Source: a virus. From it: a stretch of DNA of 64,000 nucleotides. Below, piece after piece: positions 2,615 through 33,926 of the stretch (the stretch's first letter is position 1; each line of letters begins with the position of its first letter). The notes under the pieces are model-generated. The model was not told the origin of the DNA, did no database searches, and saw only the letters and a program-made list of their open reading frames with translations. The position numbers and the translations under genes are program-made. Where the stretch lies: UHGV virus genome UHGV-0141727. One strand, 5' to 3'.

Positions 2615-2742
2615 TTGTCCGCATGTACATTCAGGCTGCTAAACCCGGTCGCAGAATTTGCTACGACGGCATGAATATAAGCCTGAACATTAGAAAGATC
2701 AACAGAATTTTTATCAGATGCTGTTTTTTTGTGACGATGTAA

Positions 2743-2788
2743 ATCATACATTCCTGATTAGAAACATCAATTTAATTTTCTAACACAC
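2743..2788 (-). promoter_or_regulatory. promoter-operator of immI-like module 1
   Basis: Minus strand GTGTGTTAGAAAAT-taaaTTGATGTTTCTAATCA-ggaatg-TATGAT. The -35 is TTGATG (2770-2765), the -10 is TATGAT (2748-2743), spacer 16. The palindromic operator overlaps the -35. Confidence 0.6.
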
Positions 2789-2842
2789 AATTACGAGCGA
2801 TGATTTTTCCGCCGCACGGTTATTGTACAGTCAATCGCAACA

Positions 2843-3802
2843 TCATCCCCGAAAGCCCTCCGGAATTGACCAGTCTTCCCGGTCAAATTCAGACCGATAG
2901 CCACGCTGTTTCATCTGGTCAAATGCTTCATTGATGGTTGCACATCCCTGGGAACCAGAATAATCCATAGAGAAATCCAGGGCGCTGGATCGTTTGGGCT
3001 TATTCACCGTGGTAGCACTACGTATCCATGCAAATTTTTTTGCCAGTTTTTCAGCGGTACGATACAGAGCCTGCCGTTTTGCGTACCCCTCGTCTGAACG
3101 ACGCTTTGCAGCTCTCGCTTTTGCCGCCGCCAAACAGTGGTTGGTATGTTCTTCCCTGATTACTGTTTTTTTATCCAGCAAGCCATTATCCGCTTGAGAA
3201 CTATCTGCTGGTGAAGCCTTTGGCTGAACCGCGCATGATCTTTCTCTTCTTTTGGCTATAGAGTGACTCTTATTTTCTATTGGCTGTTCATTTTGAACAT
3301 GGGGGGACTTGTTCAATTTGAACAGGGGGTGCCCAGTTTCAAAAAAATAACGAACCTTTGAAATCAACTGCTTAACCAGTTTTGTGGCGTTGGCAAATTT
3401 GATGCCCTGCTTACTCCCTATCTCCATTGCTACATGAATGAAGTGGAGAAATTGTGTTGTAAACCGGTACACGTTACACACCTGAGCATTGTTATTCGCT
3501 ACCTGATGCTGCTTAACAAGCATTCCGCACTTCGTCGCTTCGGTAAATGCCCGGCGCACAGTAGAAATACTGCGTCCTGTAATCTCGGACATATCAGCAT
3601 ATGAGCGACGGATCATGTATTCATCGGTAGCTCCTGCCAGGTTGGCGAACTCGGCAATAATGGCGCTATGTGAAGGGGAAAGAAAACCGCTATGACGAGC
3701 AAAAAAACTCAACTGATGACCTTTGATTTTTTTGTGGTATTCAGTGTTGTTTTTATACTCAGAAGTGTTGAAAGTTACTGGAACTGAATTTAAAATACTC
3801 AT
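2843..3802 (-). CDS. winged-helix DNA-binding protein of unknown role (possible RepL-like initiator or regulator)
   Basis: 319 aa. HTH-like SYADMSEITGRSISTVRRAFTEATKCGMLV with a basic C-terminal half. Lies between two operator sites; own putative promoter with ATAGATTT direct repeats at 3810-3860. Confidence 0.4.
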   Translation of the reverse strand: MSILNSVPVTFNTSEYKNNTEYHKKIKGHQLSFFARHSGFLSPSHSAIIAEFANLAGATDEYMIRRSYADMSEITGRSISTVRRAFTEATKCGMLVKQHQVANNNAQVCNVYRFTTQFLHFIHVAMEIGSKQGIKFANATKLVKQLISKVRYFFETGHPLFKLNKSPHVQNEQPIENKSHSIAKRRERSCAVQPKASPADSSQADNGLLDKKTVIREEHTNHCLAAAKARAAKRRSDEGYAKRQALYRTAEKLAKKFAWIRSATTVNKPKRSSALDFSMDYSGSQGCATINEAFDQMKQRGYRSEFDREDWSIPEGFRG

Positions 3803-30087: not shown

Positions 30088-31743
30088 TCAACGCATCAGG
30101 ATTGGTTTGCCGAGGATTCGACGAGCAGTGCCTGTTGGACACACGGACCATTCCACTTCCCACAAGTCGATGTCTTTTTGAGTTACCTTGACCACATAAG
30201 GGTCAGAACCTTGAGATTCATCGCGTGGTGTAACCAGCGCACCAGCCGCATAAAAACGGTCCAGAAGATCTGTCAGTGCGTTAGTCAGACTTTCCTGCGT
30301 TACGCCATCAGGTTCATGCTTGATTGCCTGAGCAACTTCATAGAAATTGCGGGCAATTGCATTCATCAGTGATGAAACGTGCTGGAATCGCAGATAGTTA
30401 TTTTTGCTGTATGTCGTCAGGGAGTCGTCGATGTAGACAGAACCATCCGCTGCAACGCTTACTGGGTTAATACGAGCGGTCACATACGCTTCACGATCGA
30501 TTGTGCCAATCCCGGAGAGTCTGGTGATGTTCTGGCGATCAATGATTGCGCGAGACAGACCAGCCGGGGCGTAATGCCAGCCGCCTACATCAGACACAAG
30601 CGCAACGCCTTTAGCTTTTGCCACAAATGCGTCGCAACTGATTCCGTAAACCACATTCATACCGCTGAAAGTGTCACGGCATGAGTACGGGAAGTGATAA
30701 CGTGCAGCCTGGTGGGATTTGCCGAAACCATGTGATTTAGCTTCCGCGATAGCGTTATCACCAGTCTGAGCACATTTCAGGTCGTAGAACATATCCACGC
30801 GAACGTCTTCTGCCAGCGAATTAATTTTTGCCAGCACGGATGCGTCGTAGCAGCCCATAGAAAGCAGCGCGGTATAATTAACTTCTGACGCTTCGAGAAC
30901 CTCTAACGCTTTCAGATAATCATCAGTGTCAATTGAGGACAGATCGCCATCTGTACCGCCTTCAAACGCTACATCTTCGAAAGTCAGCAAGTGAGCGGAG
31001 TCTTCGGCACCATCAGCCAGTACAGCTCCAAGCCTGGTGGACTGACTTTCTAACAACGCAGGAATCCATGCTGGCTGGCCCATATCGTTCGTTGCATCCG
31101 GATCGAAAGAAACCTGGTAGCTTTCCAGCGTTTCTACAGAACCATCGGTCTGTGTCTCTTTCAGTTCCAGAGTGAACAGGTCATTTTCTTCGTCCTCACG
31201 GGTCAGTGATAACGTGCGGTTTGTCGAAGCATCACCGTCCTTTATGTAGAAAATAGCCAGTTCACTGCCGGAAATTTCAGGTGTTTCGCTTGCAGCGAAA
31301 GTTACCGGAGAAGTGGCTCCAGAAACGGCACGAACGGTCAGTGTATCGCCGATATTTACCGTTGCTTCGGTCGGAGCAATTTGCAGAGTTTTTGCTGACT
31401 TGGTGCTTTTCGACCTGGCCTGAACAGAAACGGCAATGCCCGGTACTTTCATGTCTTTTGCGCATACGCGAACCACATAACCGGTGCCGCCTTTTACTGC
31501 GCGTTCAACGTGGCGATATGGTTCAAATGCGGCCCCGGTGCGCGGGTGAAGAGGTGAACCTAACACGCTCTGATAGTTGGCTGCTGTAACCTGCAAAACC
31601 TTGCCTGGTGCCCCTCTGCGGGAAATAACCAACCCGGCAAAGACGGAAGCACCGCCAGATGTGTTGGACAGGGTAGCATCGGCATTTACGTCCGCTACCG
31701 CAACGCCCGCCGCCTGACCAACAGAAAAACCAATTTTATTCAT
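30088..31743 (-). CDS. tail sheath protein (P1 gp22 position)
   Basis: 551 aa. Size and position between the capsid and tube-like genes. Preceded by an SD (AAAGAGGAAAAG). Confidence 0.55.
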   Translation of the reverse strand: MNKIGFSVGQAAGVAVADVNADATLSNTSGGASVFAGLVISRRGAPGKVLQVTAANYQSVLGSPLHPRTGAAFEPYRHVERAVKGGTGYVVRVCAKDMKVPGIAVSVQARSKSTKSAKTLQIAPTEATVNIGDTLTVRAVSGATSPVTFAASETPEISGSELAIFYIKDGDASTNRTLSLTREDEENDLFTLELKETQTDGSVETLESYQVSFDPDATNDMGQPAWIPALLESQSTRLGAVLADGAEDSAHLLTFEDVAFEGGTDGDLSSIDTDDYLKALEVLEASEVNYTALLSMGCYDASVLAKINSLAEDVRVDMFYDLKCAQTGDNAIAEAKSHGFGKSHQAARYHFPYSCRDTFSGMNVVYGISCDAFVAKAKGVALVSDVGGWHYAPAGLSRAIIDRQNITRLSGIGTIDREAYVTARINPVSVAADGSVYIDDSLTTYSKNNYLRFQHVSSLMNAIARNFYEVAQAIKHEPDGVTQESLTNALTDLLDRFYAAGALVTPRDESQGSDPYVVKVTQKDIDLWEVEWSVCPTGTARRILGKPILMR

Positions 31744-31808
31744 GCTGCTCTTTTCCTCTTTATCGAGCGGATTAGAGAAGTCTCCCCATTTGCATGGGGA
31801 GACTTTTA

Positions 31809-32087
31809 TCAGGCTTCGCCGACCGTGAAGCTGTCACCTACCGTCACTTCTTTGGTTGACGGTTCAACGCTGACGGCGCTTACGCTCTTTGGGGCTTCAT
31901 TAACCGTTACGGTGCATGTTGCCGTTTTATTGCCATCGGTGGTTTTGATAGTGAGCACTGCCTGACCTGCTTTAAGTGCGGTACAGGTTTTGCCATCTAC
32001 GCTCACAATTTCCGGATGATCTGACTCGATAGTGAAAGATTTATCTGTCGCATCGGAAGGTGTAATAGTTACCTGAATATCAGCCAT
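31809..32087 (-). CDS. Ig-like (Big_2) domain protein, possible capsid decoration
   Basis: ORF 31809..32099; GGAGG SD favours MADIQ at 32087. VTITPSDATDK...VSVDGKTCTALKAGQAVLTIKTTDGNKTATCTVTV is Big_2-like but lacks the first strands. Confidence 0.6.
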   Translation of the reverse strand: MADIQVTITPSDATDKSFTIESDHPEIVSVDGKTCTALKAGQAVLTIKTTDGNKTATCTVTVNEAPKSVSAVSVEPSTKEVTVGDSFTVGEA

Positions 32088-32124
32088 TTTTTCCTCCATA
32101 TAGCCCCTTATTCAGGGGCTGGTC

Positions 32125-32238
32125 TTACTTCTTTTTGGGTGTTTTTCGTGTCTTTGAAGTGCTCGCGGCGATAGTTTCACCTTCGTTTACTTCAATTGCC
32201 GTTGGTGAAACTGACACGTTCGCCACTGCTACTTTTTT
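32125..32238 (-). other. candidate -1 programmed frameshift site plus 35-codon extension at the capsid gene end
   Basis: mRNA reads GA-A_AAA_AAG-UAG, with the heptamer at 32238-32232 directly before the stop. The -1 frame is open to 32125 and encodes VAVANVSVSPTAIEVNEGETIAAS..., which resembles Big_2 N-terminal strands. Confidence 0.35.
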
Positions 32239-33926
32239 TCGTTGATTTGCCCGCTCAACATGTCAATCGCACCTTCTTTCGAACGTGTCAGGCGAAGGCG
32301 AGTGAAATAGTTCTCACCGTTGCGCGGATGCACATCGTTGATTGCTTTGCCCCAAAAAGTGGTGCGGTTCACTAGGGCTGGATTTGTTTCGTGGACATAC
32401 GGAATAGCAGGCACAGCATCACCTGCGACCAGGCCTGCTTTACCAATGCCTTCGCCACGACCATAGAAATAGATGTCGTCCAGGCCGAAGTCGTAGCCAT
32501 ATTTCTGGAATTGTTTGCAGATAGGCTTCGGCACTTCGTAGATACGAATGGAACCAAACAGGGTGCCGATGTATTGAATGTACGGCGACTGTACATAGCC
32601 CGGTGCCAACTGGAAGTGCTGCGGCGGTAAGGAACGCAGGAAGTTAGCAGCATCGCCACCAGCAAAGCCACCACGGATACCGGTGGTCAGGGTGCGGTCA
32701 GCCATCTCCTGTGACAGCGCGTTCACAACATGGCGAATTAAACCAACCCACGACTCGTAGTTCTGCGCTTCTGGCAGTGCCACATCAAATTCACGACCGT
32801 AAACGGTGTGGAATACCAGAGTGCGCAGGCGCATCATATCGATTTCGTGGGAAATCCAGTTGCGCATTGCAGAGAATTGCAATGCTGCCAGTTCGAGTCC
32901 GTGTTCACGGCTCAGGTCAGATGCAGCCATAACCGTATGTTCGGATGCGATCACGTACTCCGACGGGCGCAGGGCGTAATTGCGCATGGACTGGTTAATG
33001 ACTGGTATCAGGTTCGGATTGCGTTCAATGTTGATTTCAACCTGAACAGCGATTTCAGTGCCTTCTGCTGGTGCTTCATTAAAGGTGATATCGATAACGC
33101 CGGTATCGTATCGAACCTTTGCCGTCACAGAGAAAGAGTTGCCGTTGACGTCTTTGTCGTTGAAATACAGGTTGCCGTCACCATCATCTACTTTGGACGG
33201 TTTGCGGTTAATCAGCAGTTTGTTGTAGCCCTGGCGCAGCGGGCAGGCCTGGCCTTCGAAGTTCTGGATATCAAACTGGAAGGTGGTTTTTCTGCCATCG
33301 CCTTTTTCGGTCAGGATGTACAGGCGTTTCATCTGCGAATACACGCCAGCAGACTGCATGTTCAGTTCATCGCCCTGCTCGAATGTACCGAATTTTGTAC
33401 CAGCAACGTTGGTCAGCTCGTAAATATTGGTTTCATCACGATCACAAGGGATAAACGTACATGCGTCGCTGGTGGCTGCGCCGAGAGAAGCAGGCAGGAT
33501 CAGTGCGGCATATTGTGCAACCTTCATTACACCATCGGAGGTGCGCATGTCCTTGGCTACTGATTCAAACATGGCTTTGCCAGCGCCTTCATGCGTCTCT
33601 TTAGCGGACTCCATCATCAGGCGCTCAAGTGCCACATGGGCGTTGGCTAATACATCGCTTGCCGGATAATGCCCATACTGGCGTTTGTATTCATGAATAG
33701 ACATGGCCCAGCTACCAATGATCTGGCGAGCTGCTTCTGGTTCAACGCCTTCAAACATAGGCTCTTTCTGGATAGCTTTTTCCAGGTTAGCCATCATCAC
33801 TTCGTTGTCGGCAATCATGTTACCGGCAGCATCAGTGGTTGGATCGACGGTCATAGCCATGACGCTTGCCGCCCGATTCATAATCTCGCGCTCGCGCTTA
33901 CGAGCTGGCTCAATGTTCTTGTTCAC
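32229..33926 (-). CDS. major capsid protein (P1 gp23 position)
   Basis: 565 aa, GTG start. Size and placement next to the sheath gene as in P1 (22, 23). Confidence 0.6.
   Translation of the reverse strand: MNKNIEPARKREREIMNRAASVMAMTVDPTTDAAGNMIADNEVMMANLEKAIQKEPMFEGVEPEAARQIIGSWAMSIHEYKRQYGHYPASDVLANAHVALERLMMESAKETHEGAGKAMFESVAKDMRTSDGVMKVAQYAALILPASLGAATSDACTFIPCDRDETNIYELTNVAGTKFGTFEQGDELNMQSAGVYSQMKRLYILTEKGDGRKTTFQFDIQNFEGQACPLRQGYNKLLINRKPSKVDDGDGNLYFNDKDVNGNSFSVTAKVRYDTGVIDITFNEAPAEGTEIAVQVEINIERNPNLIPVINQSMRNYALRPSEYVIASEHTVMAASDLSREHGLELAALQFSAMRNWISHEIDMMRLRTLVFHTVYGREFDVALPEAQNYESWVGLIRHVVNALSQEMADRTLTTGIRGGFAGGDAANFLRSLPPQHFQLAPGYVQSPYIQYIGTLFGSIRIYEVPKPICKQFQKYGYDFGLDDIYFYGRGEGIGKAGLVAGDAVPAIPYVHETNPALVNRTTFWGKAINDVHPRNGENYFTRLRLTRSKEGAIDMLSGQINEKK

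What the first reader, a model, noticed from the sequence alone, without database searches (positions are those of the whole stretch)
31809..32238. dnaX-type slippery heptamer at the capsid stop codon opens into a split Ig-like domain
The capsid mRNA ends GA-A_AAA_AAG-UAG. A_AAA_AAG is the classic -1 slippery site, and here it sits in the correct phase directly before the stop codon.

The -1 frame stays open for 35 codons (VAVANVSVSPTAIEVNEGETIAAS...KKK). That sequence looks like the first strands of a Big_2 Ig domain. A 9-bp stem (AGUUUCACC...GGUGAAACU) starts about 19 nt downstream of the heptamer.

The next gene (31809..32087) encodes a Big_2 domain lacking exactly those first strands. It ends with another N-terminal-strand-like segment (VSAVSVEPSTKEVTVGDSF). 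Ig domains added to phage structural proteins by frameshifting are well documented. Here the domain appears to be split across a frameshift product and a separate ORF.
Basis: partly seen in the sequence, partly recalled or inferred. Interest (0 to 1): 0.6.

Follow-up and report, generated by a model that had tools for sequence, protein, structure and literature searches.

The report
Frameshifted capsid tail completes split Ig domain
In this D6-like phage-plasmid the capsid gene ends in a conserved ribosomal frameshift site that adds only the first strands of an Ig-like domain. The rest of that domain is a separate small protein, and the tail sheath carries a third copy of the strand piece, which suggests a strand-swap way of hanging a decoration protein on the virion.

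Summary
The capsid gene is a P1 gp23 homologue at 32229..33926 on the minus strand. It ends GA-A_AAA_AAG-TAG, and the -1 frame is open for 35 codons.

The next gene, at 31809..32087, matches Pfam Big_2 only over profile positions 22-79. Joining the extension to this core gives a full 1-79 match.

Relatives settle the frameshift. Every D6-group locus and six deeper lineages keep A_AAA_AAG in phase, although stop codons and capsid tails differ. Several of their -1 ORFs have no usable start codon.

Two lineages carry the same strand module in frame on the capsid. Serratia relatives carry a whole Big_2 in frame. Rosenbergiella relatives use G_GGA_AAG plus a hairpin to add an unrelated extension.

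The split is therefore conserved. The strand module sits on the capsid. The small protein supplies strands B-G plus its own C-terminal copy of the module.

I also found a third copy of the module, inserted in the tail sheath of these same lineages.

My best reading is this. The -1 frameshift makes a minor capsid species whose tail acts as a donor strand for an incomplete Ig-like decoration protein. The frameshift part is well supported. The strand complementation is inferred and was not tested.

The parts
32229..33926 (-). Major capsid protein gene (565 aa). It is a P1 gp23-type HK97-fold capsid protein.
   Evidence: ORF list. It is 87% identical to the phage D6 major capsid protein. phmmer against the solved P1 Gp23 structure 9ukm gives E = 2e-164. 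It matches phrog_1014.
32232..32238 (-). Slippery heptamer A_AAA_AAG in the zero-frame phase, directly before the TAG stop codon (32229..32231).
   Evidence: Sequence. The heptamer is invariant in all D6-group loci, while the stop codon varies among TAG, TGA and TAA. It is in phase in L039, L134, L135, L136, L137, L139 and L141.
32125..32232 (-). The -1 frame extension: 35 codons plus a TAA stop. It holds a Big_2 strand A/A'/start-of-B module (VANVSVSPTAIEVNEGETIAAS) followed by a basic tail (TSKTRKTPKKK).
   Evidence: Translation. Pfam gain on joining to the core. Alignment to the PDB Big_2 domain 7quz. Shuffle tests. Only the -1 frame has pN < pS in most comparisons.
32157..32234 (-). Predicted RNA hairpin downstream of the heptamer. 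The basal helix pairs 32220..32226 with 32165..32171 and starts 5 nt after the heptamer. The apical 9-bp stem pairs 32204..32212 with 32173..32181.
   Evidence: Fold of the region gives -27.5 kcal/mol, z = -2.6. In seven D6-group variants 93.5% of cells are paired and the basal helix is invariant. Pair 18-84 shows C-G, U-A and U-G. The apical stem has mismatches in D6 and L034. Synonymous divergence is suppressed here (pS 0.29 against 0.64-0.73 in the flanking genes).
32102..32120 (-). GC-rich hairpin (AGCCCCT-GAATA-AGGGGCT) between the extension stop codon and the ribosome-binding site of the Ig ORF.
   Evidence: Sequence. A hairpin is kept at this position with different stem sequences in D6, L039 and L037. 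The terminator scan does not flag it on the coding strand.
32093..32097 (-). Shine-Dalgarno sequence GGAGG of the Ig ORF, 5 nt before the ATG at 32087.
   Evidence: Sequence. Among relatives the frame of the Ig ORF relative to the capsid is 0, 1 or 2, so it is an independent cistron.
31809..32087 (-). Ig ORF (92 aa). It holds Big_2 strands B-G (residues 1-66) plus a C-terminal copy of the strand module (residues 67-92, at 31812..31889).
   Evidence: Pfam Big_2 at 29.4 bits over profile positions 22-79. phrog_215, 'structural protein with Ig domain'. Purifying selection, pN 0.07 against pS 0.64. AlphaFold2 gives a core with block-mean pLDDT 67-87 (residues 11-60) and a C-terminal 30 residues below 50 that do not dock in cis. 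Foldseek matches Big_2 and the lambda gpV Ig domain over about 68 columns.
31778..31805 (-). A 12-bp hairpin (AAGTCTCCCCAT-GCAA-ATGGGGAGACTT) after the Ig ORF and before the sheath gene.
   Evidence: Sequence. An equivalent hairpin is present in D6.
30088..31743 (-). Tail sheath gene (551 aa, P1 gp22 homologue). It carries an insertion of about 33 aa (residues ~107-142, at 31318..31425). Residues 118-140 (31324..31392, KTLQIAPTEATVNIGDTLTVRAV) resemble the same strand module.
   Evidence: The alignment to solved P1 Gp22 (8jaj) breaks at query residues 105-155. The insertion occurs only in lineages that have the Ig ORF. It resembles the capsid and Ig C-terminal modules more than any of 500 shuffles does. 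AlphaFold2 predicts the insertion as unstructured, with pLDDT 39-51 in a model of mean 84.

Best explanation
The element is a plasmid prophage of the phage D6 type. My explanation has four steps, marked by how well each is supported.

Step 1 (well supported by comparison, not shown biochemically). Ribosomes that finish the capsid gene sit on AAA-AAG directly before the stop codon. A fraction of them slip back one base on A_AAA_AAG. A hairpin whose base lies 5 nt downstream probably helps. These ribosomes then read 35 more codons. The result is a minor capsid species with a C-terminal tail.

Step 2 (shown at sequence level). The tail is the first strand module of a Big_2 Ig-like domain, that is strands A, A' and the start of B, followed by a lysine-rich end. 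The next, independently translated gene encodes the remainder of such a domain, strands B-G. It also has its own C-terminal copy of the module. The tail sheath carries a third copy as a surface-loop insertion.

Step 3 (inferred). The small protein cannot complete its beta-sandwich alone. It is completed in trans by a donor module displayed on the capsid, at a density limited by the frameshift rate, or on the sheath. This docks it on the virion. Its own C-terminal module can then accept the next copy. Short non-covalent strings of Ig domains could form in this way, mimicking a tandem Big_2 array.

Step 4 (inferred from what is proposed for phage Ig-like domains in general). The decoration gives weak adhesion to surface carbohydrates.
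For: Frameshift:
- The heptamer is in phase and invariant in every D6-group locus, while the stop codon varies among TAG, TGA and TAA and flanking synonymous sites vary.
- It is also in phase in L039, L134, L135, L136, L137, L139 and L141. In these the preceding codon encodes E, G or A but always ends in A. In most, the site lies 2 codons before the stop.
- The -1 ORF of L039 has no ATG, GTG or TTG. In L134, L135, L137 and L141 the only such codons lie 15-18 codons in, at or beyond the end of strands A/A'.
- Several lineages have an A-run of only 6. That is too short for efficient transcriptional slippage (the threshold rests on my own knowledge).
- Rosenbergiella relatives have G_GGA_AAG-TGA, an 11-bp hairpin 4 nt downstream and a 72-codon -1 ORF.
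- In the D6 group a hairpin starts 5 nt after the heptamer. Its basal helix is invariant and synonymous change is suppressed.

Split domain:
- The Ig ORF covers Big_2 positions 22-79. Extension plus core covers 1-79 and gains 8 bits. The same holds for L037 (+5.5 bits) and L039 (+1.3 bits).
- L037, L038 and L138 carry the module in frame on the capsid and still keep the strand-less Ig ORF.
- Serratia relatives have one whole Big_2 in frame.
- The module on the Ig ORF C-terminus is under purifying selection.
- AlphaFold2 leaves that C-terminus undocked and low in confidence.
- The sheath insertion module occurs only in Ig-ORF lineages and is significantly similar to the other modules. It is predicted to be disordered.
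- L142 lacks both the Ig ORF at this position and the sheath module.
- L139 has an extra Ig ORF that is core only.
Against: - No protein-level evidence is available. The D6 genome paper is not in the paper library.
- Within the D6 group, protein-level constraint on the extension is weak. pN/pS is about 0.5 and 8 synonymous against 12 non-synonymous changes is not distinguishable from neutrality.
- Predicted downstream RNA structure is inconsistent in the deeper lineages, with z from -2.9 to +0.5.
- There is no conserved upstream Shine-Dalgarno-like element.
- L142 keeps the extension without an adjacent Ig ORF, so the extension may have a role of its own.
- Rosenbergiella relatives add an unrelated extension by the same route.
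- All lineages with an Ig ORF form one clade. The co-occurrence of Ig ORF, capsid module and sheath module may therefore trace to a single origin.
- Same-genome modules are not clearly more alike than modules from different genomes.
Confidence: 0.55

Rival explanations
1. The frameshift is real, but the pieces do not assemble. The extension acts on its own, for example through its basic tail. The Ig protein folds or binds the virion by other means. The module copies are leftovers of a register-shifted cut out of an ancestral tandem Big_2 array.
For: - The Ig ORF aligns over residues 2-89 as one contiguous, register-shifted unit of giant tandem Big_2 proteins.
- L142 keeps the extension without the Ig ORF.
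- Rosenbergiella relatives frameshift into an unrelated Ala/Lys-rich tail.
- Protein-level constraint on the extension within the D6 group is weak.
- The same-genome module test gave no clear signal.
Against: - The same truncation point, just after G-D/E-x-hydrophobic, is kept in three places (capsid, Ig C-terminus, sheath) across about 10 lineages, where the Ig ORFs are only about 45% identical.
- The module is attached to the capsid by two different routes, frameshift or in-frame fusion, while the acceptor gene stays separate.
- A beta-sandwich lacking strands A and A' would expose its core.
Confidence: 0.3
2. The -1 ORF is an independent small gene, as annotated in D6 (orf50). It would be translated by termination-reinitiation at the overlapping TGATG or at GTG.
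For: D6 and L032 have an ATG that overlaps the stop codon. The window has a GTG three codons in.
Against: - L039 has no start codon at all. L134, L135, L137 and L141 have start-like codons only at or beyond the end of strands A/A'.
- No Shine-Dalgarno sequence precedes the GTG in the window.
- L037 and L138 have the module fused in frame to the capsid.
- The heptamer is conserved even where the stop codon lies 6 nt further on.
Confidence: 0.05
3. The longer capsid form arises from RNA polymerase slippage on the A-run, which adds one A to the mRNA, and not from ribosome slippage.
For: The window, D6 and L039 have a run of seven A.
Against: - L135, L136 and L137 have only six A.
- Rosenbergiella relatives use GGGAAAG, which is not a homopolymer.
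- The phase of the heptamer is conserved. Phase matters for ribosomes and not for the polymerase.
- By my own knowledge, efficient bacterial transcriptional slippage needs runs of about 9.
Confidence: 0.05
4. A second recoding event, such as ribosome bypassing of the hairpin in the manner of T4 gene 60, joins the extension to the Ig ORF and makes one capsid-Ig fusion protein.
For: The take-off codon before the stop and a matching codon just upstream of the Ig ATG exist in the window (AAG to AAA, 37-nt gap), in D6 and in L039 (GAG to GAG). A hairpin lies between them.
Against: - L037 has no matching landing codon.
- The matches fall inside an A-rich or GGAG ribosome-binding region, where they are expected by chance.
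- The Ig ORF has its own strong ribosome-binding site and its frame relative to the capsid varies.
- A fusion would duplicate part of strand B and insert the basic tail into the domain.
Confidence: 0.02
5. The heptamer and the -1 ORF are a decaying remnant of an ancestral frameshift-attached Ig domain and no longer have a function.
For: The Serratia group shows that a complete fused Big_2 exists in this capsid family. Selection on the extension within the D6 group is weak.
Against: The heptamer, its phase, the open -1 frame and a recognisable module are kept in lineages whose synonymous sites are saturated (pS 0.6-0.7) and whose Ig ORFs are only about 45% identical.
Confidence: 0.03

Closest known systems
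E. coli dnaX -1 frameshift signal (A_AAA_AAG)
   Same: The heptamer is identical and is used in an enterobacterial host. In the D6 group a predicted hairpin starts 5 nt downstream, compared with 6 nt in dnaX by my own knowledge.
   Different: No conserved internal Shine-Dalgarno element lies upstream. Here the shift extends the protein past its stop codon, whereas in dnaX it truncates the protein. The site sits at, or 2 codons before, the stop codon.
Capsid or tail proteins lengthened by programmed frameshifting, often with an Ig-like domain. Examples are T7 gene 10A/10B, Lactobacillus phage A2 capsid, and SPP1 gp17.1/gp17.1* (Fraser et al. 2006, cited in PMC8718954).
   Same: A minor, C-terminally extended form of a major structural protein is made by recoding at the end of the gene. 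The added sequence belongs to the Ig superfamily. SPP1 adds an FN3 domain by frameshift and is viable without it.
   Different: In those cases the shifted frame encodes a whole domain. Here it encodes only about 21 of 79 Big_2 positions, and the rest is a separate cistron.
Donor-strand complementation and exchange in chaperone-usher pili
   Same: An Ig-like fold lacks one edge strand. A candidate donor strand sits on another polypeptide. Each subunit carries both an acceptor and a donor, which would allow chains. One relative (L139) has a core-only subunit that could cap a chain.
   Different: The missing strand is N-terminal (A/A') and not the C-terminal G strand. The donor is C-terminal or in an internal loop. 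No chaperone or usher is involved. There is no sequence homology. Complementation is inferred here and not demonstrated.
Separate Ig-like capsid decoration proteins such as T4 Hoc and T5 pb10
   Same: A small Ig-domain protein is encoded next to the head genes and is presumably displayed on the capsid.
   Different: By my own knowledge, Hoc and pb10 carry a dedicated capsid-binding domain and complete Ig domains. This protein is a single incomplete domain with no other binding module.
Serratia P1/D6-like phage-plasmids (pJSRIV002_3)
   Same: They have a homologous capsid protein with a Big_2 domain at the same C-terminal position.
   Different: The domain is complete and in frame on every subunit. 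There is no heptamer, no separate Ig ORF and no sheath insertion.

Membership tests
-1 programmed ribosomal frameshift site (X_XXY_YYZ) | Slippery heptamer in the zero-frame phase. | tested here: met
   GA-A AAA AAG at 32232..32238. It is in phase in all D6-group loci and in seven deeper loci.
-1 programmed ribosomal frameshift site (X_XXY_YYZ) | The -1 ORF is open past the site, conserved in relatives, and not otherwise translatable. | tested here: met
   The -1 ORFs run 22-45 codons past the heptamer and share a recognisable module. L039 has no start codon, and L134, L135, L137 and L141 have only late ones. Only the -1 frame has pN < pS in most pairs.
-1 programmed ribosomal frameshift site (X_XXY_YYZ) | Stimulatory RNA structure 5-9 nt downstream. 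| tested here: inconclusive
   The D6 group has a basal helix at +5 nt that is invariant, with z = -2.6. Rosenbergiella relatives have an 11-bp hairpin at +4 nt. The other lineages are inconsistent.
-1 programmed ribosomal frameshift site (X_XXY_YYZ) | Two protein products in a fixed ratio. | not testable with these tools
   This needs mass spectrometry or a reporter assay.
dnaX-type signal specifically | Internal Shine-Dalgarno-like element about 10 nt upstream of the heptamer. | tested here: not met
   The upstream sequence is GAGCGGGCAAATCAACG in the window and CAGGCAAGGTTAACG in D6. No conserved GGAG-like element is present.
Pfam Big_2 (PF02368) domain | Score above the gathering threshold. 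| tested here: met
   The Ig ORF scores 29.4 bits against a cut-off of 22.8.
Pfam Big_2 (PF02368) domain | Complete domain within one polypeptide. | tested here: not met
   The Ig ORF covers profile positions 22-79 only. Full 1-79 coverage appears only when the capsid extension or another module is joined to it in silico.
Phage structural protein with an Ig domain appended by frameshift (Fraser 2006 class) | The shifted frame encodes a whole Ig-like domain. | tested here: not met
   The extension has 35 codons and covers about 21 Big_2 positions, then a basic tail and a stop codon.
Donor-strand complementation system | Acceptor subunit with an incomplete Ig fold. | tested here: inconclusive
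   Sequence and profile coverage indicate missing A/A' strands. The AlphaFold2 core model shows 5 strands at moderate confidence. There is no experimental structure.
Donor-strand complementation system | A donor strand from another chain occupies the missing-strand groove. | not testable with these tools
Only candidate donors were identified.
P1 gp23-like HK97-fold major capsid protein | Full-length homology to solved P1 Gp23. | tested here: met
   phmmer gives E = 2e-164 over residues 5-560 against 9ukm.

The most novel reading that the evidence does not exclude
D6-like phages build non-covalent strings of Ig domains on head and tail by donor-strand complementation.

- The frameshift rate at the capsid stop codon sets how many capsid subunits display a nucleating strand.
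- Every sheath subunit displays one in a loop.
- Each 92-aa subunit accepts a strand and offers its own C-terminal strand to the next subunit.
- Core-only subunits, such as the 68-aa ORF in L139, cap the chain.

This would be a pilus-like assembly principle working without chaperone or usher. It would also be a new way for viruses to attach decoration proteins.
Probability: 0.15. Interest if true: 0.9.

Novelty: new variant of a known kind. Interest (0 to 1): 0.72.

Why it matters
Frameshift-appended Ig domains on phage structural proteins are textbook. In the known cases the shifted frame carries the whole domain.

Here a conserved frameshift delivers only a strand-sized piece. The complementary piece is a free protein. 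The same piece recurs in the tail sheath.

If the pieces assemble, three things follow.
- This is a new docking principle for virion decoration. Its stoichiometry would be tuned by recoding efficiency.
- It is a natural split-Ig tag-and-catcher pair that could be used for phage display.
- It is a clear case of how a fused domain can evolve into a split, trans-assembling one. The fused form survives in Serratia relatives, the in-frame split in L037 and L138, and the frameshift split in D6.

There is also an annotation consequence. The capsid frameshift is not annotated in the phage D6 records (NC_050154, MF356679), where the -1 ORF is listed as a hypothetical protein, nor in the other D6-like records whose annotation I examined.

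Tried and rejected
The complex was therefore not modelled.

2. The D6 genome paper (Gilcrease and Casjens 2018) is not held. Literature searches found no report of strand complementation in phage decoration proteins.

3. A metagenome scan with the Ig ORF profile found no further split-type lineages. It returned only D6-like loci and generic multi-domain Big_2 proteins.

4. The exhaustive HMMER search with the Ig ORF was swamped by giant tandem Big_2 proteins. Its one useful result is that the ORF equals a register-shifted repeat unit.

5. The test of whether modules of one genome resemble each other more than modules of other genomes was inconclusive. Permutation gave 2333/5000 for capsid against Ig C-terminus, 258/5000 for capsid against sheath, and 41/5000 for Ig C-terminus against sheath. 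Phylogeny confounds these figures.

6. I considered ribosome bypassing or a second shift that would fuse the extension to the Ig ORF, and rejected it. L037 has no landing codon, the frame relation varies, and the Ig ORF has its own ribosome-binding site.

7. I do not favour the 9-bp stem as the stimulator. It lies 19 nt downstream and has 1-2 internal mismatches in D6 and L034.

8. The heptamer count in the window is not itself unusual.
Full report
WHAT IS THERE

All genes discussed lie on the minus strand.

The window is a D6-like plasmid prophage. The region is 79% identical to Escherichia phage D6 and 98% identical to E. coli plasmid NZ_CP085065.

The 565-aa ORF at 32229..33926 is the major capsid protein. 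It is 87% identical to the D6 protein and 44% identical to P1 gp23. phmmer against the solved P1 Gp23 structure gives E = 2e-164.

The capsid gene ends AAC GAA AAA AAG TAG, so A_AAA_AAG (32232..32238) is in the X_XXY_YYZ phase directly before the stop codon.

The -1 frame reads VAVANVSVSPTAIEVNEGETIAASTSKTRKTPKKK and stops at 32125..32127.

After that stop come four features in order:
- a GC-rich hairpin at 32102..32120;
- a GGAGG ribosome-binding site;
- a 92-aa ORF at 31809..32087;
- a 12-bp hairpin at 31778..31805.

The tail sheath gene at 30088..31743 follows.

The 92-aa ORF matches Pfam Big_2 above threshold, but only over profile positions 22-79 of 79. It ends with VSAVSVEPSTKEVTVGDSFTVGEA.

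IS THE HEPTAMER MEANINGFUL?

On its own it is not. AAAAAAG occurs 27 times in the window against about 20 expected. The evidence comes from relatives.

I collected about 130 related loci from genomes, IMG/VR, metagenomes and assemblies. They show the following.

- D6 group. Every locus, about 38 with capsids 86-97% identical, has AAC GAA AAA AAG. The stop codon that follows is TAG, TGA or TAA. The -1 ORF has 35 codons, or 41 in one locus with a 1-nt deletion.
- Seven deeper loci. L039, L134 (Klebsiella variicola), L135 (Raoultella), L136, L137 (K. michiganensis), L139 and L141 have divergent capsid tails: ...EKKSE, ...EKKSK, ...GKKSQ, ...GKKSE, ...AKKSE, ...DEKK and ...EKKSG.
- All seven keep xxA AAA AAG in phase. 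In most it lies two codons before the stop. The preceding codon encodes Glu, Gly or Ala but always ends in A.
- Start codons. The -1 ORF of L039 contains no ATG, GTG or TTG. In L134, L135, L137 and L141 the only such codons lie 15-18 codons in, at or beyond the end of strands A/A'. These peptides can be made only by ribosomes arriving from the capsid frame.
- Transcriptional slippage. Three lineages have an A-run of only six, which argues against slippage by RNA polymerase.
- A more distant branch. Rosenbergiella relatives (L009, L063) have G_GGA_AAG-TGA, a perfect 11-bp hairpin 4 nt downstream and a 72-codon Ala/Lys-rich -1 ORF.

Frameshifting at the end of this capsid gene family is thus recurrent.

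RNA STRUCTURE

It is the apical part of a larger predicted hairpin of -27.5 kcal/mol, z = -2.6.

- The 7-bp basal helix of that hairpin, GUGGCGA/UCGCCGC, begins 5 nt after the heptamer. That is the usual spacing for a stimulator.
- In seven D6-group variants the basal helix is invariant.
- One pair just below the basal helix shows C-G, U-A and U-G.
- The apical stem has mismatches in D6 and L034. Overall 93.5% of cells are paired.
- Synonymous divergence in the extension region is 0.29, against 0.64-0.73 in the capsid gene and the Ig ORF. This is the signature of an overlapping nucleic-acid constraint.
- In the deeper lineages the predicted structures are inconsistent, with z from -2.9 to +0.5.
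- There is no conserved Shine-Dalgarno-like element upstream.

The signal is therefore dnaX-like in its heptamer, but it is not a full dnaX-type cassette.

IS THE EXTENSION A PIECE OF AN IG DOMAIN?

- Joining extension residues 1-21 to the Ig ORF core turns the Pfam match from positions 22-79 at 31.2 bits into positions 1-79 at 39.4 bits.
- The same operation gains 5.5 bits in L037 and 1.3 bits in L039.
- The joined sequence aligns end to end with solved Big_2 domains (7quz) and with the Ig domain of lambda gpV.
- Complete Big_2 homologues P0013 and P0014 have ...YPVESVSIDKNSVELTEGE... exactly where the Ig ORF begins.
- I compared the extension with seven equivalent regions: the L039 extension, the L037 capsid tail, the Ig-ORF C-termini of the window, L039 and L037, the Serratia domain and P0013. 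In five of the seven, at most 1 of 1000 shuffles reached the observed score. The two exceptions were the window's own Ig C-terminus (8/1000) and that of L039 (76/1000).

THE SPLIT IS CONSERVED AND ATTACHED IN TWO WAYS

This is the key comparative result.

- In L037, L038 and L138 the capsid protein itself ends ...GTVVEGVTLSPASITVSAGDEITAGNTKKDS*. The module is fused in frame, with no frameshift. The strand-less Ig ORF still follows as a separate gene.
- In the Serratia group the capsid carries one complete Big_2 in frame, and the sheath gene follows directly.
- P1, Pantoea and Citrobacter types have neither feature.
- Among relatives the frame of the Ig ORF relative to the capsid is 0, 1 or 2. 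The ORF also has its own ribosome-binding site, so it is an independent cistron.
- The Ig ORF is under purifying selection, with pN 0.07 against pS 0.64. This includes its C-terminal module.
- In all lineages it ends shortly after the motif G-D/E-x-hydrophobic-x-V. The capsid module turns into its tail, or stops, at the same point.

A THIRD COPY IN THE TAIL SHEATH (NOT PART OF THE ORIGINAL FINDING)

- Aligned to solved P1 Gp22, the window's sheath protein has about 33 extra residues between positions 105 and 155.
- The insertion contains KTLQIAPTEATVNIGDTLTVRAV. D6 has KELSVEPTETTVNPGDTLSV, and L136 has VTSVTATPDSLEVAVGDEIQVI.
- It is present, complete or partial, in every lineage that has the Ig ORF. 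It is absent from the Pantoea, Citrobacter, Rosenbergiella, Serratia and P1 types.
- For the D6-group insertions, the score against D6-group capsid and Ig C-terminal modules exceeds all 500 shuffles.
- AlphaFold2 models the sheath well, with mean pLDDT 84, but leaves the insertion unstructured at pLDDT 39-51.
- One short contig, L142, has the capsid extension followed directly by a sheath gene. It lacks both the Ig ORF at this position and the sheath insertion.

STRUCTURE OF THE IG ORF ALONE

AlphaFold2 with a shallow alignment gives a five-strand core with block-mean pLDDT of 67-87 over residues 11-60. The last 30 residues have pLDDT below 50 and do not dock.

Foldseek matches Big_2 and lambda gpV Ig domains over about 68 columns.

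The six-residue linker between strand G and the C-terminal module looks too short for the module to reach its own A-strand position. The geometry matches the junction between consecutive domains of a tandem array. Consistent with this, the ORF aligns as a register-shifted repeat unit of giant Big_2 proteins.

MECHANISM PROPOSED

Shown or strongly supported:
- a -1 frameshift at A_AAA_AAG yields a minor capsid form with a 35-aa tail;
- the tail is the A/A'/start-of-B module of Big_2;
- the next gene encodes strands B-G plus another module;
- the sheath carries a third module.

Inferred:
- the modules are donor strands that complete the small protein's fold in trans and so dock it on head and tail;
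- because each subunit is both acceptor and donor, chains are possible;
- L139's additional 68-aa core-only ORF would be a natural chain cap.

By analogy with P1, which has 775 capsid and 318 sheath subunits (PMC12810830), a frameshift rate of a few percent would give tens of nucleation sites per head. The rate itself is unknown.

RIVALS

The main rival accepts the frameshift and denies the assembly. In it the modules are leftovers of a register-shifted excision from a tandem array, and the extension works alone.

Four observations favour this rival:
- L142 keeps the extension without an adjacent Ig ORF;
- Rosenbergiella relatives add an unrelated extension;
- protein-level constraint within the D6 group is weak, with pN/pS about 0.5;
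- the co-variation test among modules was unclear.

Three observations count against it:
- the same truncation point is kept at three sites across about 10 lineages;
- the module is attached by two routes;
- the acceptor gene is kept separate.

The other rivals are each unlikely, for the reasons given in their entries:
- independent translation of the -1 ORF, as in the D6 orf50 annotation;
- transcriptional slippage;
- a bypass that fuses the extension to the Ig ORF;
- a dead remnant.

COMPARISON WITH WHAT IS KNOWN

- The heptamer is that of dnaX, but the upstream element of dnaX is missing.
- The logic, a minor longer capsid protein made at the end of the gene, is that of T7 10A/10B and of the capsid or tail frameshifts that add Ig or FN3 domains (Fraser 2006; SPP1 gp17.1*). 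Those add whole domains.
- The proposed assembly resembles donor-strand complementation in chaperone-usher pili. It differs in having the opposite strand missing, no chaperone and no homology.
- I found no description of such a split in the literature I could search.
- The public D6 record annotates the -1 ORF as a hypothetical protein.

VERDICT

I rate the frameshift at about 0.85 confidence. I rate trans-completion of the Ig fold at about 0.45-0.5.

This is a new variant of a known kind, and it comes with a specific structural hypothesis that can be tested.

Noticed in passing
window 31318..31425 (-), sheath residues ~107-142. Also the sheath genes of L001, L034, L037, L134-L139.: The tail sheath carries an insertion of about 33 aa that resembles the same Big_2 strand module as the capsid extension. 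It occurs only in lineages that have the Ig ORF, and AlphaFold2 predicts it as disordered.
   Followed up: yes
L009 4695..4970 and L063 (Rosenbergiella phage-plasmids): The capsid gene ends G_GGA_AAG-TGA, the lambda G-T type heptamer. A perfect 11-bp hairpin lies 4 nt downstream, followed by a 72-codon Ala/Lys/Asp-rich -1 ORF. There is no Ig ORF. This looks like an independent capsid frameshift that adds a low-complexity tail.
   Followed up: partly
L139 2401..2607 and 2664..2939: This relative has two Ig ORFs after the capsid. One is 68 aa and core only, with no C-terminal module. The other is the usual 91-aa core plus module.
   Followed up: partly
L142 1..180 (2.3-kb Logan contig): The capsid -1 extension (…VGEPIETKTKSRKKQK*) is followed directly by a hairpin with a T-run and then a sheath gene that lacks the insertion. 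The Ig ORF is missing at this position.
   Followed up: partly
window 31809..32120 compared with L019, L108 and L110: There is a recombination mosaic. The capsid plus extension are nearly identical between the window and L019 (pS 0.06 and 0). The Ig ORF right after the hairpin is strongly diverged (pS 0.41). The Ig ORF therefore behaves as an exchangeable cassette bounded by the two hairpins.
   Followed up: partly
L030, extension tail: A 1-nt deletion in the A-rich tail of the extension changes its end to ...KAQKKQSRSKAKTRP (41 codons). The new end is still basic. This could be a sequencing error or a tolerated variant.
   Followed up: no
L037, L038, L138: capsid 3' ends: In the lineages with an in-frame module, the capsid still ends ...TKKDS* with AAAAAAG out of phase. 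This resembles the ...EKKSE* zero-frame tails of the frameshifting lineages. It hints at how one arrangement was converted into the other.
   Followed up: no
L137 1934..2485 (Klebsiella michiganensis contig): The called capsid gene is only 183 aa, so the N-terminal part is missing or disrupted. The heptamer, the extension, the Ig ORF and the sheath module are nevertheless intact.
   Followed up: no
NC_050154 / MF356679 (phage D6), orf50: The public D6 records annotate the -1 extension as a separate 34-aa hypothetical protein that starts at the ATG overlapping the capsid stop codon. The frameshift is not annotated.
   Followed up: yes
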